From contig CAVYES010000005.1 in NCBI GenBank assembly GCA_963767735.1, positions 448,001 to 512,000 on the forward strand: a DNA stretch of 64,000 nt. The letters are read 5' to 3'. The stretch is from Candidatus Bathyarchaeota archaeon. GTDB taxonomy: Archaea > Thermoproteota > Bathyarchaeia > Bathyarchaeales > Bathycorpusculaceae. The notes beneath the pieces are model-generated. The model did no database searches, was not told the DNA's origin, and saw only the letters and a list, made by a program, of their open reading frames with translations. Made by a program: the position numbers and the translations under genes. The stretch's first letter is position 1; every line of letters starts with the position of its first letter. Shown here in pieces: positions 2,327 through 16,316 of this stretch.

Positions 2327-2597
2327 AATTCTGAAATCCTGCAGTAATCAGATCGTCAAGGAAGAAAAAGCTCGAATGTGACGTTAGTAATTTCGCTTCG
2401 TCACGCAGCCAACATAGCCAATTCGAGACGAGATTTGGCTTTGGTTTTCTTGGCTTTCTCTTCTTTGGGCTCTGCAAGTTTCGCAAGGTCCGATGGTACC
2501 ATATTTGGTAAGCAACACATAGTCTTTCACAAAAATAATACTGTGAATTATTCTTAAGTATATGTGGTTGTCATAATGGAGCCACACCTTTGTTCAC

Positions 2598-2610
2598 ATT
2601 AAATTTTAAT
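2598..2610 (+). repeat. Left target-site duplication ATTAAATTTTAAT of the Cas1 element
   Basis: Identical 13-mer at 11080-11092; both copies lie immediately outside the TIRs. Confidence 0.9.
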
Positions 2611-2895
2611 CAAAAAAAAAATAATTGCTTTGTTGATTCCTCATGGAACGATACGAGCATGACCCCAAGAGCCCTCAGGGTTCTGCGCTTCGGAATGACG
2701 AACCATTGCCACTTCGCGCATGTGTTTTTTTTGATTCAGGGCATGCCAGAAAGAACACTGAGCACGTCAAGAAAGGTAGTATATCCTCAGTTCATTAGTA
2801 ATTACTCTCACTTATCATACACTACCTTTGTTTAATTATCATACACTACCTTTGTTCATAACGCCTAACTAAAGAAATTAGGGATATGTGAGGCT
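2611..2895 (+). repeat. Left terminal inverted repeat (285 bp)
   Basis: Reverse complement of 10795-11079, no mismatch found by eye; contains tandem 21-mers TTATCATACACTACCTTTGTT at 2812-2832 and 2836-2856. Confidence 0.95.
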
Positions 2896-3649
2896 ATTAA
2901 GGAAGGCTGACTTGTCGTTGAGTTCTGGGCAAGTCTTAAATCTGAATAGCAAAGAAAGTAGGATAGAGGAAATAAAAACGGAATCAGAAAAAAAGCAATC
3001 AGAAAAAGGCAACTGGGAAAAAACAGCTATTATTATTAGCATAATAAGCTTAATCGTTTCAACGAGTTTGACAGCCGTTATAGCATATACCAGTTATCAA
3101 GTAATAGAAAAGGCTGATAATATAGAAAATAACAGCCTTTTGCTACAAATAATGCAAAATGGCTATACCCCAAAAATTTCTGTGAGTAATCCCCAAATTG
3201 TTGTTCTTCAACAAGAAAATAGCTTATTTGATAATTGGACTTCACCCACTGAATGCTATGGGTGGGTAAATGGTTCAATTAATATCATGACTCCTCAAGT
3301 TGGAACAGTATCCATTAGCATAAGTAATTTCTCAATAAGCGACGATTATTCATACCTCTTACCAGAAAAAACAAATTTAACGATTGTTGAGCCAGTTCCT
3401 TCTTATTATCCCCAAGGTATCAATGATGTATATAATGTAGGTGAGGGTTTAACTGGATACAATTTTAGCCTTCCAATAGAAGCTTCATTTTATCCAAACC
3501 CTGAAAAACTACCTGTCAATACTGACTCTATTTTTCCTATCGGATATCTGCTTCTTAAAGCAAATTTTATCCCTCAAGCGACAAACTTCATACCACAAAC
3601 AGAATATTTTTCGGTAAATATCTTTGTTGACGTAAAGAATTATCCTTGA
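2888..3649 (+). CDS. Membrane-anchored extracellular protein (cargo); true start probably further downstream
   Basis: One TM helix (TAIIISIISLIVSTSLTAVIAY) then an N/S/T-rich domain with many NxS/T sequons. Confidence 0.65.
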   Translation: MRLLRKADLSLSSGQVLNLNSKESRIEEIKTESEKKQSEKGNWEKTAIIISIISLIVSTSLTAVIAYTSYQVIEKADNIENNSLLLQIMQNGYTPKISVSNPQIVVLQQENSLFDNWTSPTECYGWVNGSINIMTPQVGTVSISISNFSISDDYSYLLPEKTNLTIVEPVPSYYPQGINDVYNVGEGLTGYNFSLPIEASFYPNPEKLPVNTDSIFPIGYLLLKANFIPQATNFIPQTEYFSVNIFVDVKNYP

Positions 3650-3710
3650 GAGATTCCAGAGTGCATTAAACGGTTAGGGCTATTACCGAGTACATTCAAG
3701 GGTTAGCGCG

Positions 3711-3770
3711 CTAAGAAAGGCTTGCGATTCGAGGATTCCATTCCTTTATTTCTTCTCGCAAATATTTGGC
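3711..3770 (-). pseudogene. cas1: Relic of a cas1 3' end (AKYLREEIKEWNPRIASLS*)
   Basis: Matches the C-terminus of the intact Cas1 (AKYLREEIPDWNPRIATLVPS*) and has the same TAGCGCGCTA palindrome at its stop. Confidence 0.85.
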
Positions 3771-3854
3771 GTGTGCGTATTGTTTTCAAATTCATAAACC
3801 ATAATTCCATGTGACTTTCAAATTGTACTTTGAAGATAGCGAAGAAGGACTGAG

Positions 3855-4133
3855 CTTAAAACGAAACCCGAGTTATATACTTGCGTTAGTTGCGGAAAGA
3901 ATCATTTAAAATTATCAGAGATTGTTTGGATGAAAGAATATGAAGATGGAGACATTGACTTATCAACTGTTAGATGTGTGTCATGCCATGCGCGATTCTT
4001 GCCTACTACTTTGGTAGGTAAACTTCCTGAAGATGTTTTAAAAACTATAGACAAACCCCTCAAGAAATATGGCAAGAGAGTCAACCGTAATTACGACAGA
4101 AGAACCGTTAGACGAGCGCTGAAGAAGTCGTAA
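3855..4133 (+). CDS. Small zinc-finger protein (CVSC...CVSC), basic C-terminus; start uncertain
   Basis: The frame is open upstream of the listed ATG 3930 and adds a first CVSC (YTCVSCGKNH) to pair with RCVSCH. Confidence 0.5.
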   Translation, partial: LKTKPELYTCVSCGKNHLKLSEIVWMKEYEDGDIDLSTVRCVSCHARFLPTTLVGKLPEDVLKTIDKPLKKYGKRVNRNYDRRTVRRALKKS

Positions 4134-4144
4134 TAGCGCGCTAT

Positions 4145-5185
4145 TCAGGAAGGGACTAACGTAGCTATCCTCGGATTCCAATCAGGTATTTCCTCTCGCA
4201 AGTATTTAGCAAACAGCAAGGCTTCTTCAGCTATCAGCGTCTCTACCTCTTGTCTTTTCCCTACTTTAATCCTCGGGATTTCTACTTTGCTCCTGAAGAA
4301 AAGGCTTAAACTTTTCAGGAACTCGTCATTTTTCGCTCCGTTCAAATATTGTCTCTTGCCTTTTCTATTATTTGAGAAGGCTTCCTCTCTAAGCACGAAG
4401 TCCTTTTCTTTAAGGATTGATGCGTACTGAATAACGAAGTCGTCTACCAAAAATCTGTACAGCTCCTCAAAGTCACACACTAAGGAGGGCTTACCAAACT
4501 GCAAGCTGTGCAGAAAGCCCAAGTATGGTTCAAGCTTAGCTTTGATTAGCGCGGTATGAACGCGCCAAGATAAAACCGTGTAGGCGAGGTCAAGCAGATT
4601 GTTCGTTTTGTCATACGCTTTAAACGTCGTTCTGTTCTTAGGTCTCATGTACTCAGGGAAAAGCTCGAATATTTGCTGGAAGTATTGAGAAGCGCAATGC
4701 CCTTCGATGTTTGTTAAGGTATGCCTGAGGGTACTCAATGATTTAGCTTCTGCGTTCTTTACCTGCTCGTAACAAAAAGGGTCGAGCCTGTGCAAACCGT
4801 ATTTGCTGAGCAGGCTATCCTGTCCTCTTAGCTTGCCAATAAGAAACGCTTTCGCTATGTCAAACGACTTACCACTGGTAAAGGCTTGATACTGAGACAG
4901 CCGATTAAGGACATGAGAAGAATTGTCCAAGCCTACCAGAACGCCTACCGCGTGACCTCTCGCGGTTTCTACAATAAGGTCTATTCCAAAATAACAGCAA
5001 GTAACCAGCGCTCCGCTGCTGACCGCGTTACCTGAACGGATTTCTATTTCACCTATCGTGTTCATGTTTAGCGGGTATTTTCTTTTGTTGCCTTTGAAAT
5101 CCCGAACGAACAGGCAACCTTCTTCTCTGCCCAAAAAATAGCCCGAGCTATCTAAATTTAATTTCTCAGTTTTCGTTCCTTTCAC
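4145..5185 (-). CDS. cas1: Casposase (Cas1-solo integrase)
   Basis: Cas1 catalytic motifs NIEG, LEPYLGFLH, SLVCDFEELYR; lies inside a TIR/TSD element with no other cas genes. Confidence 0.92.
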   Translation of the reverse strand: MKGTKTEKLNLDSSGYFLGREEGCLFVRDFKGNKRKYPLNMNTIGEIEIRSGNAVSSGALVTCCYFGIDLIVETARGHAVGVLVGLDNSSHVLNRLSQYQAFTSGKSFDIAKAFLIGKLRGQDSLLSKYGLHRLDPFCYEQVKNAEAKSLSTLRHTLTNIEGHCASQYFQQIFELFPEYMRPKNRTTFKAYDKTNNLLDLAYTVLSWRVHTALIKAKLEPYLGFLHSLQFGKPSLVCDFEELYRFLVDDFVIQYASILKEKDFVLREEAFSNNRKGKRQYLNGAKNDEFLKSLSLFFRSKVEIPRIKVGKRQEVETLIAEEALLFAKYLREEIPDWNPRIATLVPS

Positions 5186-5308
5186 GCTCTATCCTCCTCC
5201 TTAATAGGGTATATAGTAAAGGGGAGCTATTTTAGCTTTAAACGTCAAAAGGGCTTATTTTTAGCCATATTAGCCGTTTTAGGCGCAATATTGTGGCTAT
5301 TTAGGAGC

Positions 5309-5345
5309 TCGTAGCCTTAAGCTACGAAAAGGCTTTATATAGTAT
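5309..5345. promoter_or_regulatory. Inverted repeat TCGTAGC-N5-GCTACGA next to a BRE/TATA-like AAAAGGCTTTATATA
   Basis: Seen in the AT-rich divergent intergenic region between cas1 and the ATPase. Confidence 0.4.
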
Positions 5346-5641
5346 ATAAGGAGGGTTGGACTTTTTAAACTATTTTTAAGCTCTAAACGTAAAATGACTT
5401 AAAATTCTTCCCCTATTAGCTATATTCATGTTTAAAATAGGCTTATTAGGATAAATTAAGCCCGATTTGTAGACTTCATGGATTTTGAAAAAAGATTTTT
5501 TAACTTGTTTATTTAAAAACGCGGGTATATACTACGAATTTAAGTATTAACGTATAAAAGCCTAAAATAGAACGAACCGAACGTAGAGGTTATAGATAGC
5601 CCGAATTTAGGAGATTAGGGATATGTCAAAGACAATAGGGC

Positions 5642-6493
5642 TTGAACCAATTGAAGAAATTCCTGAGATATTCCCTGTACTCAGGGTTTGTCAAGAACAA
5701 GAAAAGACCCGTATCGGCTTTGATTATGGCGCATCCAGAGAGGGCTAAGAGCACGGAGACTCTCAAGTTCGAAGGTCTTGGGATACTTTACATGACCGAT
5801 TTGACCCACTATGGTCTTATGGAAGAGCTAAAAGACATGCCAGCCGACAAAAGAGAAGCGTTGCATCATCTCGTAATACCTGATTTGGAGAAACTCCGAA
5901 CAAGAGGAAAGAGCGTCAGGGAAGAACTTATGTCTTGCTTTAGGGACTTGACCGAGGAGGGCTTGGGAAGAATGCATACGGGAAAGATAAACGTAAACTT
6001 TGACCCTCCCGTTGTTATGGGCGTTATAGCCTGCACCACTCCAGAAGACATAGGCGACAGGAGAAGCATACTCAGGAACGTAACATTCCTGTCCAGATTT
6101 ATTCCCTTTACTTACGATTACTCAGACCAAATGAAGATAGACATACTTAATTTCGTTGAAAAAGAGGATGAATTGACCGAAAGAAAAGACCAAATAATCG
6201 GAAAGGTGGCAAGAGTCGAATTGCCAGAGAGTTTGGCGGGCGAATTGACAACCTATGCAATTTATCTCGCACATAGAATACAGAAATTCGCTTCTACAAA
6301 ATCTGTAGACGGGAAAGACAGCCTGTTTGGAGTTAGGGCGAAAGAGAACCTTATGACGCTGTTAAAGAGCATAGCGTTGTACAACGGAAACAGAACGGTG
6401 GAGAAGGAAGACTTGAAAGAACTAATGCACCTCTACAAGTACATGAACTTCAATTTTAGGGAGATGGATGACAGAATATTCGGAGGTGAGTGA
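5642..6493 (+). CDS. MCM-clade AAA+ ATPase core without MCM N-terminal domain; possible true start ATG 5623 with a +1 frameshift
   Basis: Walker A-like AHPERAKST, Walker B-like LVIPD, Arg finger FLSRF, sensor-2-like GVRAKENL. Confidence 0.6.
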   Translation: MNQLKKFLRYSLYSGFVKNKKRPVSALIMAHPERAKSTETLKFEGLGILYMTDLTHYGLMEELKDMPADKREALHHLVIPDLEKLRTRGKSVREELMSCFRDLTEEGLGRMHTGKINVNFDPPVVMGVIACTTPEDIGDRRSILRNVTFLSRFIPFTYDYSDQMKIDILNFVEKEDELTERKDQIIGKVARVELPESLAGELTTYAIYLAHRIQKFASTKSVDGKDSLFGVRAKENLMTLLKSIALYNGNRTVEKEDLKELMHLYKYMNFNFREMDDRIFGGE

Positions 6494-6893
6494 GATTGGA
6501 CACAATTCCTGGGCGCGAATTTATGGGGATATTCATGCGAACAAGTATTACATAGACATGAAAGGCGCATACACTCGTGAGGAAATTAATAGAAGGGTCG
6601 AAGCTGCAGAAAAAGCTGCGCTATACCTCGGTCGTCGAGGAGACCTCGACCCTCAAACTGTCCGACAAAGGATAGCCCGTCTGGCGAAATTAAGAAAGGC
6701 TGACATCGGAAGCCGCGCCATCTCGGAAGCGCGAAGGCATCCTGACGGAATGGTAAACCTGACGCTGCATTACGGGCGTGATAAAGCCTTCGGCATGAGA
6801 ATTGACCGCATGCAACGCCTTAGGAGATTGGAAAAGACGCGAAGAGCGGAAAGGATGGAAAGGATGCGGAAAGCAAGGTTCGACAGAGGTTGA
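6468..6893 (+). CDS. Highly basic Arg-rich protein, possibly nucleic-acid binding
   Basis: Composition; overlaps both neighbours in an operon. Confidence 0.6.
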   Translation: MTEYSEVSEIGHNSWARIYGDIHANKYYIDMKGAYTREEINRRVEAAEKAALYLGRRGDLDPQTVRQRIARLAKLRKADIGSRAISEARRHPDGMVNLTLHYGRDKAFGMRIDRMQRLRRLEKTRRAERMERMRKARFDRG

Positions 6894-7198
6894 AAGAAAT
6901 GGTTGACGTAAGCACGCTCTTAATTTCTATGGTAACGGGATTATTCGCTGGAATAGGAACGACTGTCGGAACTTACTTGGCAAACAAGCATCTCGTCGAG
7001 AACATGAAGAAATTAGAGAAGGCTGCAGTCGAAGCCATAAGAGCACCGTTGTTCCAAGCAGAACGCAACGCGGAACCCTTATACCCTAAAGGGTATTCCC
7101 AAAGACGCATCAGGAATACCCGTAGTAAATTCCCTTATCACGTTACTCGCCCAGAAAAGCGCGGTCATCCCCGTAAGGTTATTGAACACACTCGATAG
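6890..7198 (+). CDS. Small membrane protein (N-terminal TM, basic tail)
   Basis: LLISMVTGLFAGIGTTVGTYLA; GAGGT RBS-like site; coupled to the upstream ORF. Confidence 0.6.
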   Translation: MKEMVDVSTLLISMVTGLFAGIGTTVGTYLANKHLVENMKKLEKAAVEAIRAPLFQAERNAEPLYPKGYSQRRIRNTRSKFPYHVTRPEKRGHPRKVIEHTR

Positions 7199-7224
7199 AG
7201 TACGCTTTAGGTTGGTGTCAAGTT

Positions 7225-7383
7225 TTGGACTTATTCGGAAGTGCTATAGCGATAGCGCTTATCCTTGTATTTTTCATCATGGCGCTTGGGTATATCGGCT
7301 TTGATAGAGTAGGGCAAGCCCTTCGCTCGCTCTGGGAAGCCTTTAGTGCAATATGGGTTATTCTTTTTGGAACATCCCCGTAA
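7225..7383 (+). CDS. 52-aa hydrophobic membrane protein (MDLFGSAIAIALILVFFIMALGYIGFDRVGQALRSLWEAFSAIWVILFGTSP)
   Basis: Hand translation, TTG start, below the ORF-track cutoff; fills the gap in the operon. Confidence 0.55.
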   Translation: MDLFGSAIAIALILVFFIMALGYIGFDRVGQALRSLWEAFSAIWVILFGTSP

Positions 7384-7534
7384 AGGCAGATGCGAGATTT
7401 TGCTTAAAAGGTTGGAACATACTCGGAAGAGTATAGCCGAATGGGGAAAACGAAATGAAATAGAAAGCCTGATTGTAGTCGTCGTACCCGTCGCGGTTTT
7501 TATCGTGGTAATTTTCTTGGCGAAATGGTTGTGA
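7346..7534 (+). CDS. Small protein with C-terminal TM helix; start probably near 7400
   Basis: SLIVVVVPVAVFIVVIFLAKWL. Confidence 0.5.
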   Translation: MQYGLFFLEHPRKGRCEILLKRLEHTRKSIAEWGKRNEIESLIVVVVPVAVFIVVIFLAKWL

Positions 7535-7540
7535 GTCCTT

Positions 7541-7684
7541 ATGGACATATCCAGCATATTCGGTACATTACTCGGGGCAGGCATTCTTGTTGCTTTCATA
7601 ATCTACGTTATGGTGAAGATAGGAATTTTGGGCAGGTTCGTTCGCGCTGTTAGCTCGCTCTTGCATTTAATATTCGGGGATTAA
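7541..7684 (+). CDS. 47-aa hydrophobic membrane protein (MDISSIFGTLLGAGILVAFIIYVMVKIGILGRFVRAVSSLLHLIFGD)
   Basis: Hand translation, ATG start; pattern resembles the 7225-7383 ORF. Confidence 0.55.
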   Translation: MDISSIFGTLLGAGILVAFIIYVMVKIGILGRFVRAVSSLLHLIFGD

Positions 7685-7686
7685 CA

Positions 7687-7959
7687 ATGCCACAGAAATA
7701 CTGGATAAAAGAAAAACTTGGATGTAATGAGCGGTGGGATTGTTCTCGCTGCGCAAAAATGCTGTCTTGTCTGGATAAGGCTATGGGAAAGCCAGATTGC
7801 GAAGAGCCCGAAGCAGAAGTAGAAACGAAGCCTAAAGAAACAACCCCAAAGAATAAACCCAGAAAGGAACCTGACAGCGATTTTAAAAAGTCACGAGGTT
7901 GCAAACGGGTTATTAAATGCAATTGCTGTAGGGAATTTTTCGTTAACTGCTTTCCTTAA
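7687..7959 (+). CDS. Cys-rich small protein with two similar Cys clusters
   Basis: GCNERWDCSRCAKMLSC and GCKRVIKCNCCREFFVNC separated by an E/K/P-rich linker. Confidence 0.55.
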   Translation: MPQKYWIKEKLGCNERWDCSRCAKMLSCLDKAMGKPDCEEPEAEVETKPKETTPKNKPRKEPDSDFKKSRGCKRVIKCNCCREFFVNCFP

Positions 7960-7979
7960 TGAATGAGGAGGTGATAAGG

Positions 7980-8021
7980 ATGGCAAAAGCACCAAAAAGA
8001 AACCCGAAAAGAAACATGTAA
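7980..8021 (+). CDS. 13-aa basic micro-ORF MAKAPKRNPKRNM
   Basis: Strong GGAGGTGA RBS just upstream. Confidence 0.3.
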   Translation: MAKAPKRNPKRNM

Positions 8022-8028
8022 GTGAACC

Positions 8029-8286
8029 AAGCGAAAGCTCCTCAAAGGCTTAGGGTTTTCCATTCGGGAATACCCAAAGAACTTTTGGGAATACCCTGTA
8101 GGGTAAAACCCCAAGGCTCAGAATGAAGGCGCTCCTCACCTAAGCGCGTACTCAGAGTAGCCATTGCTGCCAGCTATTCGGTACTGCGCAGTCGCGCTTG
8201 GAGCGTGAGGAGCCGAGGTTTCGCTTAGGTTTTTCCACATCCTCGTTGAAAGATGCGGCTCAAGGTTTTCTCACCTCGTCTTTCAA
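8029..8286 (+). ncRNA. Candidate structured RNA (multibranch plus 3' hairpin)
   Basis: Nested stems 8029-8040/8215-8226, 8049-8059/8105-8115, 8073-8079/8083-8089, 8131-8139/8205-8213, 8142-8148/8193-8199, 8155-8161/8173-8179, 8246-8255/8277-8286; several G-U pairs on the + strand. Confidence 0.55.
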
Positions 8287-8377
8287 GCCTTCCTGAAATG
8301 CCCCTTACTGAGAAATCTGTGTCCCTCACTACATATAACACTAAGAAGTCTTAAATCTGAAATAATACTATGACTAA

Positions 8378-8728
8378 ATGGTGAATGTTATGAGTAGAAT
8401 ACCAGAATTTGAAATAAAGGATAGCGAAAACTTCAAAATCATTTACTCTACAGGTGTATTTGGCGGTCTTGCGCCAAATGACGGAAGAATGGTTTTGTAT
8501 ATAGATTTGCTGAAAACAAAACCAGTTAGAGGAGAACCTGGAAAGGAAGAACTTGACAAAATTGTTAGGGAAAGGGAAGTTGAAATTCACCTGTCACCAG
8601 CAACTTGGAAAAGTATTGCAAAATGGATGACCGCGCATGTAGAGCAACTTGAAAAAGTTTATGGAAAAATACCTGAAGAACCAAAAAGTATCATTCCACA
8701 AACACAATCTGGAAATCCTATCGTTTAG
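8378..8728 (+). CDS. DUF3467-like small protein
   Basis: FKIIYSTGVFGG...EREVEIHLSPATWKSIAKWM pattern. Confidence 0.55.
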   Translation: MVNVMSRIPEFEIKDSENFKIIYSTGVFGGLAPNDGRMVLYIDLLKTKPVRGEPGKEELDKIVREREVEIHLSPATWKSIAKWMTAHVEQLEKVYGKIPEEPKSIIPQTQSGNPIV

Positions 8729-8738
8729 ATGGTCTTTT

Positions 8739-9299
8739 TTGAGTTTCAAAGTTTATATTTCTTCTGACTGCAACGACACGTTCTTTGTTAACAATGTACT
8801 TGGAGTTAACAATGTACTTGGAGCGATTCAAGAGAAAAGTGAAGAAATTCGCAACGCTATAGGCATAGAAATCCATCCAATCTATCCACCAAGACAAGCC
8901 ACAACTGGGATGACTGTTGAAGATAAGATAGCCCAAATAAGAGATTCGGCTTTAGTTATTATGAACATTACTCCAAGAATCATTGCAACTGAGTATGTTG
9001 TTAATTCTGGTGTTCTTATAGAATATGGGATTGTATTAGGTTTAGGCATAGCTGATAATCTCTGCATCCTATGTAATCAAGAATTTGAAAGAGCCCGACT
9101 GTCGCCGATTTTTCATGGTCATGACATTTAACAATTCATACAGACTACTGAAGGAACAGAATTAAAAAACATCATAAAAAATATTCTAAGTAATCACATC
9201 GCCAAGATTGTCCAAAGAAGCAGCCAACTTGCTCAAAGTGATAGGATTAAGCAAGATTTCATAGAAGAGCAAATAAGGTCAGCGAGCAACGCCACATAA
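8739..9299 (+). pseudogene. Nucleoside 2-deoxyribosyltransferase/TIR-like fold protein with an in-frame TAA at 9129-9131
   Basis: IRDSALVIMNITP...NSGVLIEYGIVLGLG; the same frame continues 55 codons past the stop. Confidence 0.5.
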
Positions 9300-9315
9300 C
9301 GGGAGTCATAAAAAG

Positions 9316-9393
9316 TCAGATTGTTGGGATTCTTGGATTCCTGTCTTTCCGTTCGTTTATCGAATACTTCGCAAACAACAGAGCCTCTTCACT
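9316..9393 (-). pseudogene. cas1: Second relic of a cas1 3' end (SEEALLFAKYSINERKDRNPRIPTI*)
   Basis: EEALLFAKY identical to the intact Cas1 and NPRI conserved in register. Confidence 0.8.
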
Positions 9394-9516
9394 AAGGCTT
9401 CACCATACCATTTTTGTTCTGCTTACGCAGAACCTCTTTTCGGGTCTACCCTTCTCCCGCCCTTACTGCACTACACGCGCTAAAGGGTACGCCTTCCTGA
9501 ACAACGCTTTTAGCGT

Positions 9517-10062
9517 TTACTGAAAAACCAGAGGTAGTATTTTTGCGCCTTGTGGTATTACAAGTGGTTTTACGTCATTGATGATGTTAGCTGTCTTAGC
9601 CTCTATAGGAGTTAAAGTCTTTGCTTCGAGAAACATCTCTTTGACTTTATCCGAATCAAGTTTCGAGTTTGCGACAATAATGTCAGTTATTAGTTTTTGG
9701 TCTCGTTCAATGCTCAGTAAGCCCTCTTTGATTTGTTTTTCATCAAATCTCGCTTGCTGTAATATGTTCAAAGCTACGCCATGAAATAGAAATGATGAGT
9801 TTGGAACAGCATATCTTTCGGTACCAGCTAATAATACAATATTGGCGATTGAGTCAACTATCCCGATATTGAACGTTATAGTTTTTATTGGAAGCGACTT
9901 GATGTAGTTGAATAATGTAATTCCACTGTTTGTCGCTCCTCCAGGTGAAGACAGCATTAGACAAACCTCTTTTTCACCTATGTTTACTTGTTCTGCCAAG
10001 ACACTCATTAGAGTTTGAGAAGTCTTACCATCGATTCCTGCGTGGAAATTAATAAACAACAT
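9517..10062 (-). CDS. Stand-alone ClpP/crotonase-like serine protease
   Basis: LSSPGG, catalytic DSIA (Ser), FLFH (His). Confidence 0.75.
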   Translation of the reverse strand: MLFINFHAGIDGKTSQTLMSVLAEQVNIGEKEVCLMLSSPGGATNSGITLFNYIKSLPIKTITFNIGIVDSIANIVLLAGTERYAVPNSSFLFHGVALNILQQARFDEKQIKEGLLSIERDQKLITDIIVANSKLDSDKVKEMFLEAKTLTPIEAKTANIINDVKPLVIPQGAKILPLVFQ

Positions 10063-10190
10063 TGGATTAGCTCCTTATTCTACTTTGAATTGCCTTTGCA
10101 TATAAGTTTATGCACTACCCGATACCGTAAAGTTACCCATAACAAACCTTAAGCCAACTTCTTCTAATACCGTCTTTCGAGGGATTAAGG

Positions 10191-10700
10191 ATGCCCAATG
10201 AAGAAATCAACAAAACAAAACAGAAAATTATAGAATGGTTAAAGGAAGAGGGATTCTCGGCAGAAGAAAAACAAGACCCAAATGCTTACTTTAATATTCA
10301 AGCAACAAAAGGCAGAATAAATGTGAACATTATCCAAAACCCACCTTTCAATGATAGTATCTTCATTGGTGGAAACATCGCCGTTGCTCCAGAACAACAA
10401 GCGCTTCTGAAATCAAGGAGTCGAGATAAAAGGGAAGATTTCATTTGGGATTTACAAATGAGCCTCGCAGCGAACAATGAATTAGGCGATTTTGCGCTAA
10501 AACCCAATCCACCTGACGATATACAAACCATTTTTGTTTCCTCTCGGAGAATCTACTATGATGAACTGACTAAAGGGAAACTCTTTACTTCAATCAATAT
10601 TGTCATGAAAAACATCATATTGACTATTTGGAAACTGCAAAAATTTGTTGGAATGCATATGCCCAAAACGCCTGCAACAAAGCAAGATTATTCTACGTAA
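10191..10700 (+). CDS. DUF2299-like archaeal protein
   Basis: IIEWLKEEGF...REDFIWDL...IYYDELTK pattern. Confidence 0.6.
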   Translation: MPNEEINKTKQKIIEWLKEEGFSAEEKQDPNAYFNIQATKGRINVNIIQNPPFNDSIFIGGNIAVAPEQQALLKSRSRDKREDFIWDLQMSLAANNELGDFALKPNPPDDIQTIFVSSRRIYYDELTKGKLFTSINIVMKNIILTIWKLQKFVGMHMPKTPATKQDYST

Positions 10701-10794
10701 AGTAATGCCCTTTCTTTCTTAATTGATAGAATACCTGAAGGTCTTCTTCTTTCTTTAGGTGGTACACATTCTTCAGGTTGCTGAATGCCTGAAC

Positions 10795-11079
10795 AGCCTC
10801 ACATATCCCTAATTTCTTTAGTTAGGCGTTATGAACAAAGGTAGTGTATGATAATTAAACAAAGGTAGTGTATGATAAGTGAGAGTAATTACTAATGAAC
10901 TGAGGATATACTACCTTTCTTGACGTGCTCAGTGTTCTTTCTGGCATGCCCTGAATCAAAAAAAACACATGCGCGAAGTGGCAATGGTTCGTCATTCCGA
11001 AGCGCAGAACCCTGAGGGCTCTTGGGGTCATGCTCGTATCGTTCCATGAGGAATCAACAAAGCAATTATTTTTTTTTTG
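10795..11079 (-). repeat. Right terminal inverted repeat (285 bp)
   Basis: Reverse complement of 2611-2895. Confidence 0.95.
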
Positions 11080-11092
11080 ATTAAATTTTAAT
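11080..11092 (+). repeat. Right target-site duplication ATTAAATTTTAAT
   Basis: Identical to 2598-2610. Confidence 0.9.
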
Positions 11093-11459
11093 CCAACCAA
11101 CCAACGAAAAAGTAAGGAAAAGTTAGACCTTTTTGAAAAGGTTGCAGGTGTTACTCAGTTCGGCATAGGCATATCACATAAGGTTAAGGTATAGTATGTG
11201 TAGTATCGGAATCGAGTAAACACTCAAAACTATGGAAAAAATAAGAAAAAATAAAGGAAAAAGAGATAAGGGTTCTGGTAACTTCGTTGGATAGTTTTTC
11301 GGTGTAAACTGTCTTGGGATATTTTTCTCGGTGTTAAGTTTCATGGGACACTTGTTTATGTGTTAATTTATATATATATATATAGATTATTAAGAGAAGC
11401 TATATTAGCTCCCCAATGGATACTCTCTGCTTCCGAACATAAGTAGAGGTGAAAAAAGA

Positions 11460-11648
11460 ATGCTTTCAAGAGATTGCGATGGCTGCTCAATGCTTAAGGC
11501 ATGCAGTGTACGATACAAAAAAACTTTAAAAGGTGACAAAGTCTACTGCCCAGACGGAACAGCACACCTGATTGACTGTGACAGCATAAAGCAAAGCACC
11601 GATATAATCTGTGTCTTTGAAGCGAGTCAATTAATCGAAAAAACTTAA
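11460..11648 (+). CDS. Small Cys-rich hypothetical protein
   Basis: GAGGTG RBS; CDGC and YCPDG motifs. Confidence 0.55.
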   Translation: MLSRDCDGCSMLKACSVRYKKTLKGDKVYCPDGTAHLIDCDSIKQSTDIICVFEASQLIEKT

Positions 11649-11833
11649 AGATTAGCGACTAAACAGAAAAACTGAAAAAAAATCAAAAAACCATAATTGC
11701 CCCTTAAGCTGTTTTTGCAGCGTTTTGTATTAGTGTTTTCCATTTGTTTTCGCCTTCGATTGTTATTTCACATGCTCACTCGGAGTTTTGCCGTCTAAGG
11801 CTTCTGTGCGGTTTTTTAGTGATTTAAAACCTT

Positions 11834-12058
11834 TCAGCGGAAAACCGTGCAGTCATTTGCTTCTCTCATCGTTAACCCGTGTTTGAGGGCAAAATTAGTT
11901 AAGAGGGTTTTTTCGCTGTTTCCGACAAGCCATTTAACGTGTAGTTCCCAATCTTGCGATTTTTCAGCCTGTACTGTATACACTATAGGTGTGCCTTTCA
12001 CCGTTTCAAAGATAACCAACAACTCATCAAGTATTGAAAGAGCCTCTTCTCTATTCAT
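11834..12058 (-). CDS. Small hypothetical protein, likely paralog of 13362-13613
   Basis: MNREEALSILDEL...ALKHGLTMRE vs MKREEAVAIYKEI...AKSHNLAVRE. Confidence 0.55.
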   Translation of the reverse strand: MNREEALSILDELLVIFETVKGTPIVYTVQAEKSQDWELHVKWLVGNSEKTLLTNFALKHGLTMREANDCTVFR

Positions 12059-12184
12059 AATCCGCAATATATGCGGAACTAATTTAAAGATTTTTGGAAT
12101 GCGGTTAAAAAAAATTACTTCTCAGCGTGGAATTGCAATTTTCTATCTTGTATCACACTCAAGCGCGCGCAACTATTAAATTGC

Positions 12185-12355
12185 TCATTCTTTTGCCTCA
12201 ATGATTAATCGCCAATCTGTTATCGTAAGCTCTAGGTGTTGTCCATCATTCCAGCCTAATTCGTTGACTGCCTCTTCTGGAATGACTATTACATGTTTGT
12301 ATTGACGTTTGTCCTTGTCCTTGTAATCAAGTTGCTTCTGGAGTTTAGATTTCAT
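12185..12355 (-). CDS. AbrB/MazE/SpoVT-type small DNA-binding protein (56 aa)
   Basis: Hand translation: ...YKHVIVIPEEAVNELGWNDGQHLELTITDWRLIIE; GAGGA RBS. Confidence 0.65.
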   Translation of the reverse strand: MKSKLQKQLDYKDKDKRQYKHVIVIPEEAVNELGWNDGQHLELTITDWRLIIEAKE

Positions 12356-12596
12356 TTTTGGGATTCCTCAAATTTGTAAATCAAGAGGAAACAAATACGT
12401 GATAGGGTACATTCTTTTTCTTTAACCAACAATGTTTACTTCCAGCTTCAATTGTTAAACATGAAAAGCTATTATGAAGGTTTGTGGGCACAAAAAGAGG
12501 CAACAAACGTTCAGAATCACAAATAGACGAATTTTTACATCAAAAATAAAGTAAGTCTTAAATCTGCGCGTCGCGCAGTTGAAAATTTACCATTTA

Positions 12597-12950
12597 TTAT
12601 GTCGATTTGACAAACGAGCTTTTTTCCTTAACTGAGTGTAGGTATACCTGTGGAATTTTATAGCTGATGGTGTTTGCGTAATTTTTTTGACTGGTACACA
12701 CCTCAACGCTAATTTCTTTATCATCTGAATCTTCCGAAGGATTACTAACAAAGAGTATGTCCATGTTTCCTATACGAAAGTGTAAGTGAGCTCCTTTAGC
12801 TTTCTCTAATAATAAAATTACTGTATTCATTTGTTGCTGGCTCAAGCCTAATGCTATCCGAATATCATCTAGAAAAGTAATTATATTCTTTGCAGATGCG
12901 GTAACCAAAGGAGATTTTTCCTTCAACATTCTAATCATCCGTGAGGTCAC
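12597..12950 (-). CDS. Hypothetical protein
   Basis: 117-aa ORF, no recognised motif. Confidence 0.4.
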   Translation of the reverse strand: MTSRMIRMLKEKSPLVTASAKNIITFLDDIRIALGLSQQQMNTVILLLEKAKGAHLHFRIGNMDILFVSNPSEDSDDKEISVEVCTSQKNYANTISYKIPQVYLHSVKEKSSFVKST

Positions 12951-13233
12951 GTTTCACAGTGTTTTCAATTTAAGCTTTATGAAGTTGAGATTAATTACGG
13001 AATCGCATCCTTTGAATTTATTTCCACAGTAATTCTAATAGGTGTCTTATTGAATTCTCCTTGCAAATCCACAGTGTACCTTGTCCCATTTCGTCTTTTT
13101 GTCTCTTGTGGTTATTAAGCGCGGCGCGCTGAAAACATATATCCAAATTGGATGCGTTCTATTGTTGCGACAAGATGTTACACCAAATACTAATATCGTC
13201 ATGAAGCAAGACTTAAGGTGAGGCGTCATCCGA

Positions 13234-13359
13234 GTGGCTGAATGCCCTTACTGCCATAATGAAGTTTCTAAAACTCAGGCTAAATTACAGAACAGCTTCT
13301 TCACAATCGAAACCTTCACATGTGATAGATGCGGAAGAAGATTCACTGTAACAAAATAA
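13234..13359 (+). CDS. 41-aa zinc-ribbon microprotein (CPYC...CDRC)
   Basis: Hand translation, GTG start after AGGTGAGG. Confidence 0.55.
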   Translation: MAECPYCHNEVSKTQAKLQNSFFTIETFTCDRCGRRFTVTK

Positions 13360-13361
13360 CT

Positions 13362-13613
13362 CTATTCTGTTTTTTTGGGTTTGTAGACTATTACTTCGCC
13401 TTTCTCTTCTCGCACAGCTAAGTTATGTGATTTAGCGATATGGACAATCTGTTCTTTGACTGAGCCATCTGATAACATTGTAATACATATTTGATAGCCT
13501 TCTGAGGTTGGGTCACCTATTTTCGATAACTTTAGGTTAAAGGAGTTTGACCCCATGTGTTCACCTAAATTCAGGATTTCTTTATAGATAGCGACTGCTT
13601 CCTCTCTCTTCAC
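13362..13613 (-). CDS. Small hypothetical protein (83 aa)
   Basis: GTG start MKREEAVAIY; similar to 11834-12058; the upstream part of the listed 224-aa ORF is IS antisense. Confidence 0.55.
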   Translation of the reverse strand: MKREEAVAIYKEILNLGEHMGSNSFNLKLSKIGDPTSEGYQICITMLSDGSVKEQIVHIAKSHNLAVREEKGEVIVYKPKKTE

Positions 13614-13710
13614 GTGCTTCCCCAAGTTCGCTACCTGCGTACAAACTATTAAACTTGTGTAGCTGTAAACGTCCAGCAACAGAGCGGCTGCTATATTCAA
13701 ATCAAGCGCG

Positions 13711-14812
13711 CTGGCTTGTCCCTTAATTAAGTAAACGTTTATTTTTGAGTTGGGGCCTCGTTTCAAATGAGTTACGTCCAAGCTTAGGAGGTGACCCCAA
13801 GCGGGACAAGATGAACACGAGACCCTAGAAACCCTCTTCAGAAACGTAGACTTAAGTTTTGCTAAAGCAGCCTTACTCGACTGCTTCCATTCCGATGGTC
13901 CAGGAAGACCCCCCAGAAACCCAATGGGACTTTTCAGAACCTTCATCGTTATGCGCATGAAGGGCGTTCGCAGCCTAAGAGAAATGACCAGACTACTCGA
14001 CGCAGACCCAAGACTTAGACGATTGTGCCTCATCAAACCAGCCGAAAAAGGTTACCCACGAAGCGTTCTCAGCAGGTTCATCCGCAAAGTTGGAGAAATC
14101 CGCCTCATTAACATAATAGACGAGAAAGTTGTTAAGCTCTCGAAACACAGCAGTGCAAGAGACGTTGATTCCATTTTTGATGCTTCCTTTATAGATGCGT
14201 GGAGTACACGTGATCCACTGGACAACCAGACCGGCTATTCAGACAAGGAAGCCAGAGTCGGACGCGCAGGCAGATCATTCGGACTCGGCTACAAGCTGCA
14301 CTTAGCTATCGATTCTGCGACTATGCTTCCTTTAGCCTGCATTTTTGCTTCGGCTAATCAGAACGAGCAGAAACACTCATTGAACCTGCTGGAGAAGACC
14401 AAGCTGATTCTCAAGCAGTCTGAGGCTAAATTGAGAAGTGTGATAGCTGACAGCCAGTACAGCGACGGCAAACTCAGAGACGCTGTCGACGCTGCGGTGA
14501 TACCGTATCGTTCAAACCAGAAACGGGACGTTAAGGGCTTGCTGAGAGTGGACAAGAAGTTTCGAGCCTATGGACCGGAAGAACAGAAGAAGGAGTACCA
14601 CAAAAGACCTCATGTAGAGGCAGTCTACAGCTTCCTAAAGACACAGTACAGCCTAACCGTCAATAAAGTAAGAGGCTTAGGCAACGTAGCTTCATATGCG
14701 CTCTTTAGCATTCTATGCTTAGTTCTGAACCGAGAGGCGGCAGAAAACTTCGGAAGATACGATAAAGCAGTCTCACCAACATACTTCAACACGTAATATC
14801 GGGACAAGGCAG
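13711..14812 (+). mobile_element. Insertion sequence (DDE, IS5/IS1182-like), ~1.1 kb
   Basis: Ends CTGGCTTGTCCC and GGGACAAGGCAG (11/12 inverted match) flanked by CGCG; exact ends are ambiguous because CGCG is palindromic. Confidence 0.8.
13801..14796 (+). CDS. DDE transposase; frame open to a GCG codon after GGAGGTGA, first ATG at 13924
   Basis: GRPP N-terminal motif, IFDASFI, GYKLH, IADSQY, YHKRPHVEAVYSFLK. Confidence 0.85.
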   Translation, partial: AGQDEHETLETLFRNVDLSFAKAALLDCFHSDGPGRPPRNPMGLFRTFIVMRMKGVRSLREMTRLLDADPRLRRLCLIKPAEKGYPRSVLSRFIRKVGEIRLINIIDEKVVKLSKHSSARDVDSIFDASFIDAWSTRDPLDNQTGYSDKEARVGRAGRSFGLGYKLHLAIDSATMLPLACIFASANQNEQKHSLNLLEKTKLILKQSEAKLRSVIADSQYSDGKLRDAVDAAVIPYRSNQKRDVKGLLRVDKKFRAYGPEEQKKEYHKRPHVEAVYSFLKTQYSLTVNKVRGLGNVASYALFSILCLVLNREAAENFGRYDKAVSPTYFNT

Positions 14813-15189
14813 CGCGGGGTAACTTTTCTTATATTTTTTACCCCTAATGCCATTATTTTAATTAATTTACGAGGGGTAACTTTTACTGAACTTCTTACTC
14901 CTCATACCAATACCTAACTACAATATACCTTAGTGACCTATCAAAAGTCTTTACCTAACGTTATTTTTTTTTATTAAAATTTAATCCCACATGCATTTCA
15001 GCAATTTTACTTCGAACACCAAGCCATATGTTGCGAGCGCGCGAATATATATTTTTCAATTTTTGGCTGTGATTATGCACATACACCGTTTTCACATTCT
15101 TCATAAAGTCTTCTTCTCATCCTTAACACAAATCTTAACAAAGAAAAGATGTGAGAGGTTGAAAACGATTAAGACGGCTACGACTTAAG

Positions 15190-15483
15190 CTAAGAGTGGG
15201 GTGCCGTGAGCATTTTGGTGGCTTCTGCCTCTGTCCAAGCCTTCATCGTCATCGTGCGGATGTTTCCCATGCTGCCTGTGCACAAAAGAATTGCCGCCAT
15301 ATCTTCATCTTTGGGAATTTCAACAAAAAGCACAAAATCATATTTTCCCATGGTTGTGAAGAACTTCATTTTTCCGCCAGCTTTTTCAATCATTTCTCTG
15401 GCTGCTTTGACTCTTTCCGGAGATTCTGTCACGTTTTTTATACCCTGTTCGGTCCAGTTTCCAAGAATAATAAAATTCGACAA
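15190..15483 (-). CDS. GYD domain protein
   Basis: NWTEQGIKNV...TMGKYDFV...GNIRTMTMKA. Confidence 0.8.
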   Translation of the reverse strand: MSNFIILGNWTEQGIKNVTESPERVKAAREMIEKAGGKMKFFTTMGKYDFVLFVEIPKDEDMAAILLCTGSMGNIRTMTMKAWTEAEATKMLTAPHS

Positions 15484-15601
15484 AAATAATCACCAATATA
15501 ACTTTGGAAAATTGACTATAAAAGTGTTCTGACCATCAGGAAACAATGGAAACTAACAGTACGTTGAGCTTTGTATTTCTCCGGGAACGCTTAATTTTGG
15601 T

Positions 15602-15892
15602 TCATTTTTTTTTGGTTTGTTTAGGTACATAATCAAAGAATTTTTCAATAGTATCTTCAGAGGTCCATTCCGAGCGCATTCGCGTTTTCTTTTCAGCCCT
15701 GCGCAGCTCGGAGAGTAGCATGCGGTTTAAGTCTCTAGCGTTTTCGCCTTTGAATTCAGCGTTGACCTCGAACCCGTCGGCGGTTGGTTTGATGGAGCTG
15801 TTGTTGCCAACTACTCGTTCTAACACTGGTTTTATAGCTGAGGGATTAGCGCTGCTCACTTGTGCAGACAGCTTGAATTTTCTCTCGGACAA
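15602..15892 (-). CDS. Hypothetical protein
   Basis: GAGGA RBS; GENARDLNRMLLSELRR...FFDYVPK. Confidence 0.6.
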   Translation of the reverse strand: MSERKFKLSAQVSSANPSAIKPVLERVVGNNSSIKPTADGFEVNAEFKGENARDLNRMLLSELRRAEKKTRMRSEWTSEDTIEKFFDYVPKQTKKK

Positions 15893-15913
15893 AAATTGTC
15901 GATCCTCTTCAGT

Positions 15914-16117: not shown

Positions 16118-16316
16118 TTCATTTTACCTCAAATTAACACATTCTTCGTTTCCCTAATTAATGTATTCTCAATGACAGTGAAGCTGAAACCAGGTGCAGT
16201 GCAACTACCACAAAATCATTTATTCTTGTGTTTTTTCTGCATTAAAAAAACAGGCTTTTCTATGTTGAAAAGCATCATTCTACATTCAAAGTGCCGGTCT
16301 TCGTTCTATGCACATT

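What the first reader, a model, noticed from the sequence alone, without database searches (positions are those of the whole stretch)
3703..9393. Three cas1 3' ends, each convergent with a cargo gene: cassette-like cargo acquisition
Seen: besides the intact cas1 end (AEEALLFAKYLREEIPDWNPRIATLVPS*), divergent relics sit at 3711-3770 (AKYLREEIKEWNPRIASLS*) and 9316-9393 (SEEALLFAKYSINERKDRNPRIPTI*). All three are on the minus strand, tail-to-tail with a plus-strand cargo gene. Two share a TAGCGCGCTA palindrome at the stop (3703-3714, 4132-4145). Inference: cargo genes move between related elements together with the donor's cas1 tail, so the cas1 3' end acts as a recombination or capture site, building an integron-like cargo stack.
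Basis: partly seen in the sequence, partly recalled or inferred. Interest (0 to 1): 0.8.

Follow-up and report, generated by a model that had tools for sequence, protein, structure and literature searches.

The report
Cas1 tail scars in mosaic transposon
Two short leftovers of the end of a Cas1 integrase gene lie inside a mobile element of an uncultured archaeon and probably mark where pieces of older related elements were merged into it; the element looks like a polymerase-less relative of casposons that I did not find described, and it inserts at a 15-base repeat.

Summary
There is an intact cas1 (4145-5185, minus) and two diverged cas1 3'-end relics (3711-3773 and 9316-9396, minus). Each is tail-to-tail with a plus-strand ORF, and two carry TAGCGCGCTA at the stop.

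All three lie in an 8.5-kb element (2597-11093) with 305-nt inverted ends. It encodes a solo Cas1 and an MCM-like ATPase, has no PolB and no nearby CRISPR array, and is flanked by direct copies of a 15-nt near-palindrome, GATTAAATTTTAATC. A second, cas1-less element (11079-14986) shares the middle copy. A relative has the empty site with one such copy.

Across 166 related loci, the flanks hold 29 tail-only relics in 24 loci, 2 longer 3' pieces and no N-terminal pieces. The relics lie on either strand and either side of the resident cas1, and their break points vary (codons 272-329). The two window relics come from different cas1 lineages.

Best reading: they are scars of other elements of this family, stacked at the repeat and then partly deleted, which left the accessory ORFs and made a mosaic. 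The integron-like idea is partly supported: the cas1 end is a recurrent mosaic boundary. But insertion happens at the 15-nt repeat, and the GC palindrome also follows other genes' stops. Why break points cluster in the last 72 codons is unexplained.

The parts
2597..2611 (.). R1: left copy of the 15-nt near-palindromic target repeat (cATTAAATTTTAATC)
   Evidence: 4 matches in the window against 0.65 expected; it aligns with the single R-like 14-mer of the empty site in relative G036.
2598..2902 (.). Left terminal inverted repeat of element E1 (305 nt). It holds two tandem 21-nt repeats at 2812-2856 and the start of the 253-aa ORF.
   Evidence: 305 nt, 99% complementary to 10788-11092; no other full copy in the genome.
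2888..3649 (+). 253-aa ORF between the left end and relic 1 (accessory ORF, no family)
   Evidence: only 3 weak relatives in 400 genomes of the class.
3704..3713 (.). TAGCGCGCTA palindrome. It supplies the stop codon of relic 1.
3711..3773 (-). Relic 1: the last 19-20 codons of a cas1 from the same sub-lineage as the resident gene, with no start codon
   Evidence: E 1.2e-5; 5e-8.
3930..4133 (+). 67-aa ORF convergent with the intact cas1 (accessory ORF, no family)
4134..4143 (.). Second TAGCGCGCTA palindrome, between the two convergent stop codons
4145..5185 (-). Intact solo cas1 (346 aa), the predicted integrase of the element
   Evidence: E161, H226 and D238 are invariant and E241 nearly so in 29 homologues..
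5642..6493 (+). 283-aa MCM-like AAA+ ATPase, divergent from cas1; a conserved core gene of the family
   Evidence: a cluster found in 18 loci; pLDDT 83.8, pTM 0.85. MCM chains at Foldseek E 2.5e-8, TM-score about 0.6 on the query.
6468..6893 (+). 141-aa conserved core ORF of unknown function
   Evidence: homologues lie next to the MCM-like gene in the closest cas1 loci.
9316..9396 (-). Relic 2: the last 25-26 codons of a cas1 from another lineage. It is decayed: the invariant W is replaced by R.
   Evidence: E 1.5e-4; 8e-7.
9517..10062 (-). ClpP-like serine protease ORF directly upstream of relic 2. This sets the relic's 5' break between 9397 and 9516.
   Evidence: 3.6e-16; head maturation protease families.
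10788..11092 (.). Right terminal inverted repeat of E1
11079..11093 (.). R2: middle copy of the target repeat, shared by E1 and E2. It has the same centre base as R1.
11079..14986 (.). E2: a second, cas1-less element (3.9 kb) that carries an IS-type DDE transposase gene at 13924-14796
   Evidence: absent from the empty site of G036.
14972..14986 (.). R3: right copy of the target repeat (tATTAAAATTTAATC)

Best explanation
The window holds a casposon-like transposon, E1 (2597-11093).

What E1 is:
- It encodes a solo Cas1 with the catalytic residues in place and an MCM-like ATPase.
- It has no family B polymerase and no cas2, and no CRISPR array was found in the window.
- It has 305-nt inverted ends.
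- It is flanked by direct copies of a 15-nt near-palindrome, R.
- A second, cas1-less element, E2, shares the middle R copy.

What the relics are: scars of two other, diverged cas1 genes of the same element family.

Most likely path (inferred):
1. Related elements pile up at the same R site, in either orientation, because R is regenerated at every insertion.
2. Older copies then lose their transposition genes by deletion, or are copied only in part.
3. The roughly 0.6-1.5 kb between the cas1 stop and the element end survives. This stretch holds variable accessory ORFs.
4. That surviving stretch fuses to a neighbouring element that still works.

E1 is therefore a mosaic of at least three elements.

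Shown here: the relics, their different origins, R and its duplication, the empty site, and the family-wide excess of tail-only relics. Inferred: the stacking-then-deletion path, and the reason why the tail is the part that stays.
For: 1. Insertion at R. In relative G036, window 2320-2611 and window 14973-16138 are contiguous and overlap on one R-like 14-mer. So window 2611-14972 is an insertion, and the occupied site has three R copies.

2. R behaves as a target-site duplication. Of 17 R pairs whose inner flanks are inverted repeats, 15 have the same centre base. Of 89 pairs without inverted flanks, 45 do.

3. R arrays with inserts of 0.26-8.5 kb are common. There are 90 sites in 38 of 88 loci, 43 sites in 27 of 80 metagenome loci, and 12 sites in this genome, mostly in pairs.

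4. Secondary cas1 pieces in the flanks of 166 loci number 34. They are 29 tail-only relics, 3 full genes, 2 longer 3' pieces and 0 N-terminal-only pieces. N-terminal pieces of 25 aa would have been detected in 118 of 127 trials.

5. The relics' flanks are unrelated to each other, except in two pairs of loci. The relics are therefore mostly independent events.

6. Relics sit at the usual distance from an element end. From the cas1 stop to the next R is 594-1534 nt for 11 of the 18 full genes with a downstream R. For relics the values include 703, 732, 1297, 1400 and 1414 nt. Relic 1 is 1.1 kb from R1.

7. Some relics abut an R at their break: 18 nt in L039, 61 nt in L021, and a 1-kb R-tail-R mini-element in L039.

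8. The two window relics best match tails of other lineages, not the resident gene.

9. Tandem casposons sharing one duplicated target, inactivated copies and solo-end remnants are described for Methanosarcina (PMC4779613, passages read). Tandem casposons are also described for Thaumarchaeota (PMC6563490, passages read).
Against: 1. No vestigial R or end repeat is detectable at the internal junctions of E1 (9 matches against 10.2 expected, none convincing inside E1).

2. E1's two 305-nt ends are 99% alike. That is unexpected if its ends came from different ancestors, unless the ends are homogenised.

3. Random deletion does not predict the break points. Of 31 partial secondary pieces, 29 start in the last 72 codons. 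The binomial P against uniform starts is 7e-19, or 2e-17 after dropping two near-duplicates.

4. Relics of the other core genes are rare. Of 40 hits for the HExxH gene 5 were partial; four lie at the very end of a short locus (L111, L113, L115, L150), so only one looks internal. Of 44 hits for the MCM-like gene 5 were partial, of which 2 look like internal 3' pieces. Something is therefore special about the cas1 tail or its position.

5. Relic 2 lies 6.7 kb from the end it points to and 1.7 kb from the other end. It needs an extra rearrangement.

6. No intermediate state was found, such as E1 without the 67-aa ORF unit.
Confidence: 0.55

Rival explanations
1. Integron-like capture. The conserved cas1 3' end, with or without the GC palindrome at the stop, is a recombination site. 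Cargo units carrying a donor's cas1 tail are inserted there one after another.
For: - Break points are confined to the last 72 codons: 29 of 31 partial pieces.
- In about 107 of 133 pairs of related cas1 loci, DNA homology ends within 100 nt of the stop. One example is L023 against L106-L108, at 87-88% identity.
- Both window units end in tail plus TAGCGCGCTA.
- A GC motif follows cas1 stops about twice as often as other stops: 13.8% against 7.4%, Fisher p = 0.005.
- Relics of other core genes are rare.
Against: - There is no fixed crossover. Relic starts spread evenly over codons 272-329.
- Relics lie on either strand and either side of the resident cas1: 10, 9, 8 and 7 in the four arrangements. 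They do not form an ordered stack.
- The GC motif is present after only 24 of 174 tails, and it follows 130 of 1756 other stops too.
- E1 holds no recombinase other than Cas1. The tyrosine integrase at 17833-19632 lies outside it.
- No window cargo ORF recurs beside any cas1.
- At 78-88% identity, loss of detectable homology past a stop codon is expected anyway.
Confidence: 0.15
2. By-products of transposition itself. The relics are internally deleted or partial copies made during repair or copying from the element end inward (abortive gap repair with template switching). Or they are short terminal fragments that Cas1 integrated into R arrays.
For: - In three cases the relic's break lies 18-207 nt from an R (L039 twice, L021), where about 0.4 cases would be expected from the R density (my estimate).
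- One 1-kb R-tail-R insert exists in L039, and R arrays hold inserts as small as 260-670 nt.
- A limited copy length measured from the end would explain both the 3' bias and the sharp length limit.
Against: - Most relics, including both in the window, are not next to an R.
- The mechanism is inferred by analogy with eukaryotic DNA transposons (recalled, not tested here).
- The distance from the stop to the end varies from 0.05 to 6 kb, so one copy length does not fit all cases.
Confidence: 0.2
3. The tails are kept because they still do something. They might encode a small protein made of the Cas1 C-terminal extension, for instance a regulator of the integrase, or they might act in cis as DNA.
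For: - There is a strong and specific excess of tails.
- The relics correspond to the part of Cas1 beyond the Pfam domain, which matches residues 11-282.
- Two of the nine longest relics (L063 and L153) have a start codon in frame upstream.
Against: - Seven of those nine longest relics lack a usable start, including L165, the near-copy of L153.
- Both window relics lack a start and have stops upstream.
- Relic 2 has lost invariant residues.
- Similarity among relics follows the protein pattern of full-length genes. No extra DNA conservation was seen.
Confidence: 0.08

Closest known systems
Casposons (Cas1-encoding self-synthesizing transposons, families 1-4)
   Same: A Cas1-family integrase gene lies near one end. 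There are terminal inverted repeats and a duplicated target of about 15 nt. Insertion is sequence-specific, and the same target is re-used to give tandem elements that share one duplicated copy. Inactivated copies and end remnants occur (PMC4779613 and PMC6563490, passages read).
   Different: There is no family B DNA polymerase, which is the defining 'self-synthesizing' gene; an MCM-like ATPase is conserved instead. By sequence the Cas1 is nearer to a CRISPR Cas1 than to the solved casposase: 4n06 at 2e-27 against 6opm at 4e-17. The target is a conserved near-palindrome found in many unrelated places. The ends are simple-sequence repeats. Cas1 3'-end relics did not come up in the passages I read of that literature.
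CRISPR adaptation (Cas1-Cas2 inserting spacers next to a duplicated repeat)
   Same: The enzyme is of the Cas1 family. A short, partly palindromic repeat is duplicated at each insertion. This gives repeat-insert-repeat arrays.
   Different: There is no cas2. The gene that follows cas1 in the closest relatives is a 110-aa HExxH protein. No CRISPR array lies within 10 kb. The inserts are 0.26-8.5-kb elements with their own inverted ends, not 30-40-nt spacers.
Integrons
   Same: Variable accessory ORFs lie next to an integrase gene, with short palindromes at ORF ends.
   Different: There is no tyrosine integrase and no fixed attI/attC-like crossover. There is no common orientation. The palindrome is not specific to the units.
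Solo ends and deletion derivatives of transposons (solo-TIRs of casposons, solo LTRs, non-autonomous elements)
   Same: Remnants outnumber the extra full copies found nearby. End-proximal sequence survives while the transposition genes are lost.
   Different: Here the surviving marker is the last 15-72 codons of the integrase gene itself, with a sharp length limit that simple decay does not explain.

Membership tests
Casposon | Cas1-family integrase with catalytic residues | tested here: met
   Pfam Cas_Cas1 at 2.2e-46. E161, H226 and D238 are invariant and E241 is at least 90% conserved in 29 homologues. Mapping these onto the E. coli catalytic residues rests on recall and on the passage in PMC4046053.
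Casposon | Family B DNA polymerase encoded in the element | tested here: not met
   The largest non-cas1 ORF in E1 is 283 aa. Nine E1 ORFs gave no polymerase hit in Pfam, and eight of them none in NCBIfam. No polymerase cluster appeared among the conserved neighbours in 88 loci.
Casposon | Terminal inverted repeats | tested here: met
   305 nt at 99% in E1. 80-119 nt at 96-100% in L097, L149 and L165. 17 R pairs have inverted inner flanks.
Casposon | Target-site duplication of about 14-15 nt (length recalled) | tested here: met
   The empty site has one copy and the occupied site has three. 15 of 17 flanking pairs are direct repeats, against 45 of 89 control pairs.
Casposon | C-terminal helix-turn-helix domain of the casposase (families 2-4; recalled) | not tested
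   The protein is 346 aa and ends in a conserved tail of about 60 aa beyond the Pfam domain. No structure of the tail was predicted.
CRISPR-Cas adaptation module | cas2 next to cas1 | tested here: not met
   No Cas2 hit in any neighbour. The conserved downstream gene in relatives is an HExxH protein.
CRISPR-Cas adaptation module | CRISPR array nearby | tested here: not met
   A repeat scan of the window and of loci L001-L101 found an array only beside the unrelated cas1 on contig C10 (L003). It also gave one hit inside a large ORF in L046, which I judged to be coding repeats without further check. Loci L106-L185 were not scanned.
Integron | Tyrosine integrase with an adjacent attI, and cassettes in one orientation | tested here: not met
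   There is no tyrosine recombinase in E1; the one at 17833-19632 lies outside it. Relics lie in all four arrangements: 10, 9, 8 and 7.
Integron | attC-like palindrome at each cassette end, specific to cassettes | tested here: inconclusive
   TAGCGCGCTA follows 2 of the 3 window tails. A similar GC motif follows 24 of 174 tails and 130 of 1756 other ORFs.
Integrative element targeting a gene's 3' end (att duplication) | Near-identical direct copies of the gene's 3' end flanking an element that carries an integrase | tested here: not met
   The copies are 61-70% identical in DNA. There is no integrase between them. Across the family the copies lie on either strand.

The most novel reading that the evidence does not exclude
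This would be a large family of Cas1 elements without a polymerase, which I did not find described, mostly in Bathyarchaeia MAGs. It writes repeat-insert-repeat arrays at a 15-nt palindrome. The last ~70 codons of cas1 would not be a passive scar. They would be a preferred joining or cis-acting zone through which the element's own Cas1, or copying from the end, picks up end-fragments of rival elements together with their accessory genes. That would be a living intermediate between casposon insertion and CRISPR spacer capture.
Probability: 0.15. Interest if true: 0.85.

Novelty: new variant of a known kind. Interest (0 to 1): 0.6.

Why it matters
Casposons are held to be the ancestors of the CRISPR adaptation machinery, and every family described so far carries its own polymerase.

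Here a Cas1 family sits in elements without a polymerase. It is large: 1791 database proteins at E <= 1e-20, many of them 54-85% identical to this one. The elements insert at a short palindromic repeat that is duplicated each time, so that repeat-insert arrays build up.

The cas1 tail relics give a readable record of turnover and merging among these elements. Their sharp length limit hints at a rule of the recombination or copying step that is not yet understood.

Both points can be tested directly with the purified Cas1 and with long-read population data.

Tried and rejected
1. Relics as part of long inverted ends that reach into cas1. Rejected. In L097, L149 and L165 the ends are 80-119 nt at 96-100% identity. 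In L168, L174 and L165 the opposed tails are only 72-80% complementary, and nothing joins them to the ends.

2. Relics as eroded full-length pseudogenes. Rejected for the window. An intact ClpP-like ORF lies 120 nt upstream of relic 2, and the 67-aa ORF and cas1 lie upstream of relic 1. Real pseudogenes show several profile pieces, as at L096 14879-15263.

3. A separate clade of mini-genes. Rejected. The YET[DN].LA motif of the longest relics also occurs in five full-length genes and one 5'-truncated gene, and most long relics lack a start codon.

4. TAGCGCGCTA as a cas1-specific site. Weakened by the control on 1756 other ORFs.

5. Vestigial R copies inside E1. None above chance.

6. Relics of the HExxH or MCM-like genes in the window. 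None.

7. Viral origin. Only 2 loci were found in the viral collection. PADLOC gave no hits, and PHROGs matched the ClpP-like ORF (head maturation protease families) and gave one weak match (E 0.003) of unknown function for the DUF2299 ORF.

8. Homologues of the 253-aa ORF. Three weak hits in 400 genomes of the class, none with a cas1 tail.

9. Public runs. Four runs from three studies hold scattered short contigs, many with no differences. No contig bridges a junction or shows an empty site or a variant stack, so the runs give no evidence either way.

10. A pseudo-target resembling R inside the cas1 tail. This was considered by eye only and not tested. The spread of break points speaks against it.

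11. Profile searches of the MCM-like and HExxH proteins against solved structures by sequence gave nothing significant. Only the fold search was informative.

12. Literature. The searches were 'Cas1-solo'/'casposon', 'casposon'+'Bathyarchaeota', 'Cas1'+'Bathyarchaeia'+'mobile genetic element', and 'casposon'+'MCM'+'Cas1'. They found no description of these elements.

Full report
OBSERVATION

The intact cas1 is the 346-aa ORF at 4145-5185 on the minus strand. It matches Pfam Cas_Cas1 at 2.2e-46 and the generic NCBIfam cas1 model at 151.8 bits, against a cut-off of 71.7. It reaches no subtype-specific cut-off.

Against the whole 3.04-Mb genome, the last 40 residues of Cas1 find only four hits better than E = 2:
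- the gene itself;
- a second cas1 at C5:32874-33902, which is 50% identical over the whole protein;
- relic 1, at 1.2e-5;
- relic 2, at 1.5e-4.

A profile of the family's tail scores the relics at 5e-8 and 8e-7. The palindrome TAGCGCGCTA lies at 3704-3713 and 4134-4143. Each tail faces the stop of a plus-strand ORF of 253, 67 or 160 aa. None of these ORFs has a family hit.

The tail itself is the best conserved stretch outside the catalytic core. E320, E321, A322, L324, A326, L329, R330, W336, P338 and R339 are invariant in 29 homologues.

THE ELEMENT AROUND THE RELICS

A 305-nt inverted repeat at 99% identity (2598-2902 and 10788-11092) brackets all three tails. Its outer edge is a 15-nt near-palindrome, GATTAAA[T/A]TTTAATC, here called R. 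R occurs at 2597, 11079 and 14972 in the window: 4 matches with up to 2 mismatches against 0.65 expected, the fourth (2 mismatches, at 44423) not linked to any element.

So there are two abutting elements that share the middle copy:
- E1 (2597-11093), which holds cas1 and both relics;
- E2 (11079-14986), which has no cas1 and carries an IS-type DDE transposase gene.

The genome holds 12 R sites with up to one mismatch, mostly in pairs 2.8-8.5 kb apart. One pair brackets the second cas1.

In relative G036, window 2320-2611 and window 14973-16138 are contiguous and overlap on a single R-like 14-mer. The 12.4 kb between them is therefore an insertion at an R-like site.

Across all loci and this genome, 17 R pairs have inner flanks that are inverted repeats. 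These flanks are simple sequences such as CCCAAA, TC, CA or A runs. In 15 of the 17 pairs the two R copies have the same centre base, so they are direct repeats. Among 89 pairs without inverted flanks, 45 have the same centre base. R therefore behaves as a duplicated target, as in casposons.

E1 has no polymerase gene. Its largest other ORF is 283 aa. No CRISPR array was found in the window or in loci L001-L101, except beside an unrelated cas1 on contig C10.

The 283-aa ORF at 5642-6493 belongs to a cluster found next to cas1 in 18 loci. Its model has pLDDT 83.8 and pTM 0.85. It matches MCM ATPase domains at Foldseek E 2.5e-8, with a TM-score of about 0.6 on the query.

In the closest cas1 relatives (57-68% identity), a 110-aa protein with a conserved HELYHH motif follows cas1 by about 10 nt. 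That gene is absent from the window.

Almost all of the 79 related genome loci come from Candidatus Bathyarchaeia MAGs.

THE FAMILY-WIDE SURVEY

I collected 166 loci:
- the window;
- 8 loci from relatives;
- 79 from genome contigs;
- 78 of the 80 from metagenome contigs, after dropping two that duplicate genome loci.

I scanned all six frames with profiles of the whole Cas1 and of its tail.

The primary hits are 135 full genes, 27 5'-truncated genes and 4 C-truncated genes. These are biased by the search patterns, which lie at residues 235-283.

The unbiased secondary pieces in the flanks number 34:
- 29 tail-only relics, starting at profile positions 272-329, in 24 loci;
- 3 full genes;
- 2 longer 3' pieces, starting at 184 and 215;
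- no N-terminal-only piece.

As a control, N-terminal fragments of 25 aa from 127 family members were detected in 118 cases, and fragments of 30 aa in 124.

The relics' flanks are unrelated to each other except for L149/L151, which are identical, and L153/L165. With uniform break points, 29 of 31 in the last 58 scorable codons has P = 7e-19, or 2e-17 after dropping the two near-duplicates.

Relative to the resident cas1, relics lie in all four arrangements: 10 opposite-strand upstream, 9 opposite-strand downstream, 8 same-strand downstream and 7 same-strand upstream. The neighbour just past a relic's stop is convergent in 14 cases and co-directional in 14. For full genes the counts are 40 and 81. 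So 'tail-to-tail with cargo' is not a rule of the family.

WHERE THE RELICS SIT

From the cas1 stop to the next R is 594-1534 nt for 11 of the 18 full genes that have a downstream R in the locus. For relics the values include 703, 732, 1297, 1400 and 1414 nt. Relic 1 is 1.1 kb from R1.

In three cases the 5' break of a relic lies 18-207 nt from an R: L039 twice and L021. One of these is a 1-kb R-tail-R insert.

Relics of the other core genes are rare. Of 40 hits for the HExxH gene, 5 were partial; four of these lie at the very end of a short locus, so only one looks internal. Of 44 hits for the MCM-like gene, 5 were partial, and 2 of those look like internal 3' pieces.

ORIGIN OF THE WINDOW RELICS

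Relic 1 is closest to the tails in L106/L108 (89% aa, 81% nt). It is less close to the resident gene (83% aa, 70% nt). Relic 2 is closest to L072/L020 (75% aa, 76-81% nt), against 67% aa and 61% nt to the resident gene. So there were three different cas1 ancestors.

None of the accessory ORFs of E1 has a homologue in any of the 166 loci. This covers the 253-, 67-, 116- and 160-aa ORFs, the ClpP-like ORF and the DUF2299 ORF. The 253-aa ORF has three weak relatives in 400 genomes of the class, none with a cas1 tail nearby.

THE PALINDROME

A GC-alternating motif lies within 40 nt after 24 of 174 cas1 tails. It also follows 130 of 1756 other ORFs of at least 100 aa in the same loci. That is 13.8% against 7.4%, Fisher p = 0.005. 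So it is a general gene-end feature that is about twice as frequent after cas1, not a cas1-specific site.

HOMOLOGY BREAKS

Among 133 pairs of loci with at least 78% DNA identity in the cas1 3' part, homology ends within 100 nt of the stop in about 107 pairs. It runs on in about 24 pairs, mostly through the HExxH gene. At these divergences this result is only weakly informative. L023 against L106-L108 (87-88% identity) is one clear case of different downstream content.

READING

Together the data show a family of Cas1 elements that insert at R, stack in arrays in either orientation, and decay. The relics are scars of other elements' cas1 genes, and E1 is a mosaic.

I infer that stacking followed by deletion, or partial copying, fused the end-proximal accessory stretches of older elements to a working one.

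Several things do not fit this reading:
- the sharp limit of relic length;
- the rarity of relics of other genes;
- the absence of vestigial R inside E1;
- the 99% identity of E1's ends;
- the position of relic 2.

These points keep the capture idea and a transposition by-product alive as rivals.

Tandem casposons that share a duplicated target are in print for Methanosarcina and Thaumarchaeota, and inactivated copies and solo ends for Methanosarcina (PMC4779613 and PMC6563490, passages read). I found no description of these polymerase-less elements or of cas1 tail relics in four searches of the held library. Supplements were not seen.

Public runs gave only fragmentary contigs and no junction evidence.

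Noticed in passing
window 11079-14986: A second element (E2, 3.9 kb) bounded by R copies. It has no cas1 and carries an IS-type DDE transposase gene (13924-14796) and small unknown ORFs. Its two inner flanks do not match each other, so it may itself be a fusion of two half-elements.
   Followed up: partly
window 17815-19632: A 599-aa tyrosine integrase ORF (17833-19632, minus strand) overlaps tRNA-Gln (17815-17888). An HTH protein and an N6 DNA methylase follow. This looks like another integrated element at the tRNA gene.
   Followed up: no
window 3660-3706: A repeat of about 45 nt just before the first palindrome has copies at 78-94% identity on contigs C4, C5, C6 and C8. No long ORF ends in it. 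Contigs from two public runs diverge exactly at 3706.
   Followed up: partly
window 2812-2856 and 10834-10878: Two perfect tandem 21-nt repeats lie inside each inverted end of E1, with a degenerate inverted copy at 2769-2789. They are iteron-like and could be binding sites. A 75%-similar stretch lies inside another R-bounded element at C4:134233-134347.
   Followed up: no
window 7079-8108: A 57-nt inverted repeat (70% complementary) brackets about 1 kb of very small ORFs inside E1.
   Followed up: no
L106:4343-4678 and 15 other loci (alignment A3): A conserved protein of about 110 aa with an invariant HELYHH (HExxH-type) motif follows cas1 by about 10 nt in many elements. It has no Pfam, PADLOC or PHROGs hit. 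It may be a metallopeptidase-like partner of this Cas1.
   Followed up: partly
L014, L015, L020, L083, L084, L087, L088, L091, L096-L101 and others: Many 5'-truncated cas1 genes in relatives start at about residues 184-217. Part of this clustering is search bias. Whether they share an origin was not examined.
   Followed up: no
L099:5855-8503, L086:5866-7779, L061:5916-6585: R arrays hold very short inserts (260-1700 nt), each with its own simple-repeat inverted ends. These are miniature non-autonomous elements in CRISPR-like repeat-insert order.
   Followed up: partly
window 8787-8822: A perfect 18-nt tandem duplication lies inside the 160-aa ORF that faces relic 2.
   Followed up: no
G000:C10:6259-7014 (L003): A third, distant cas1 (28% identical) sits next to a CRISPR array. 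The host therefore also has an ordinary CRISPR locus.
   Followed up: no
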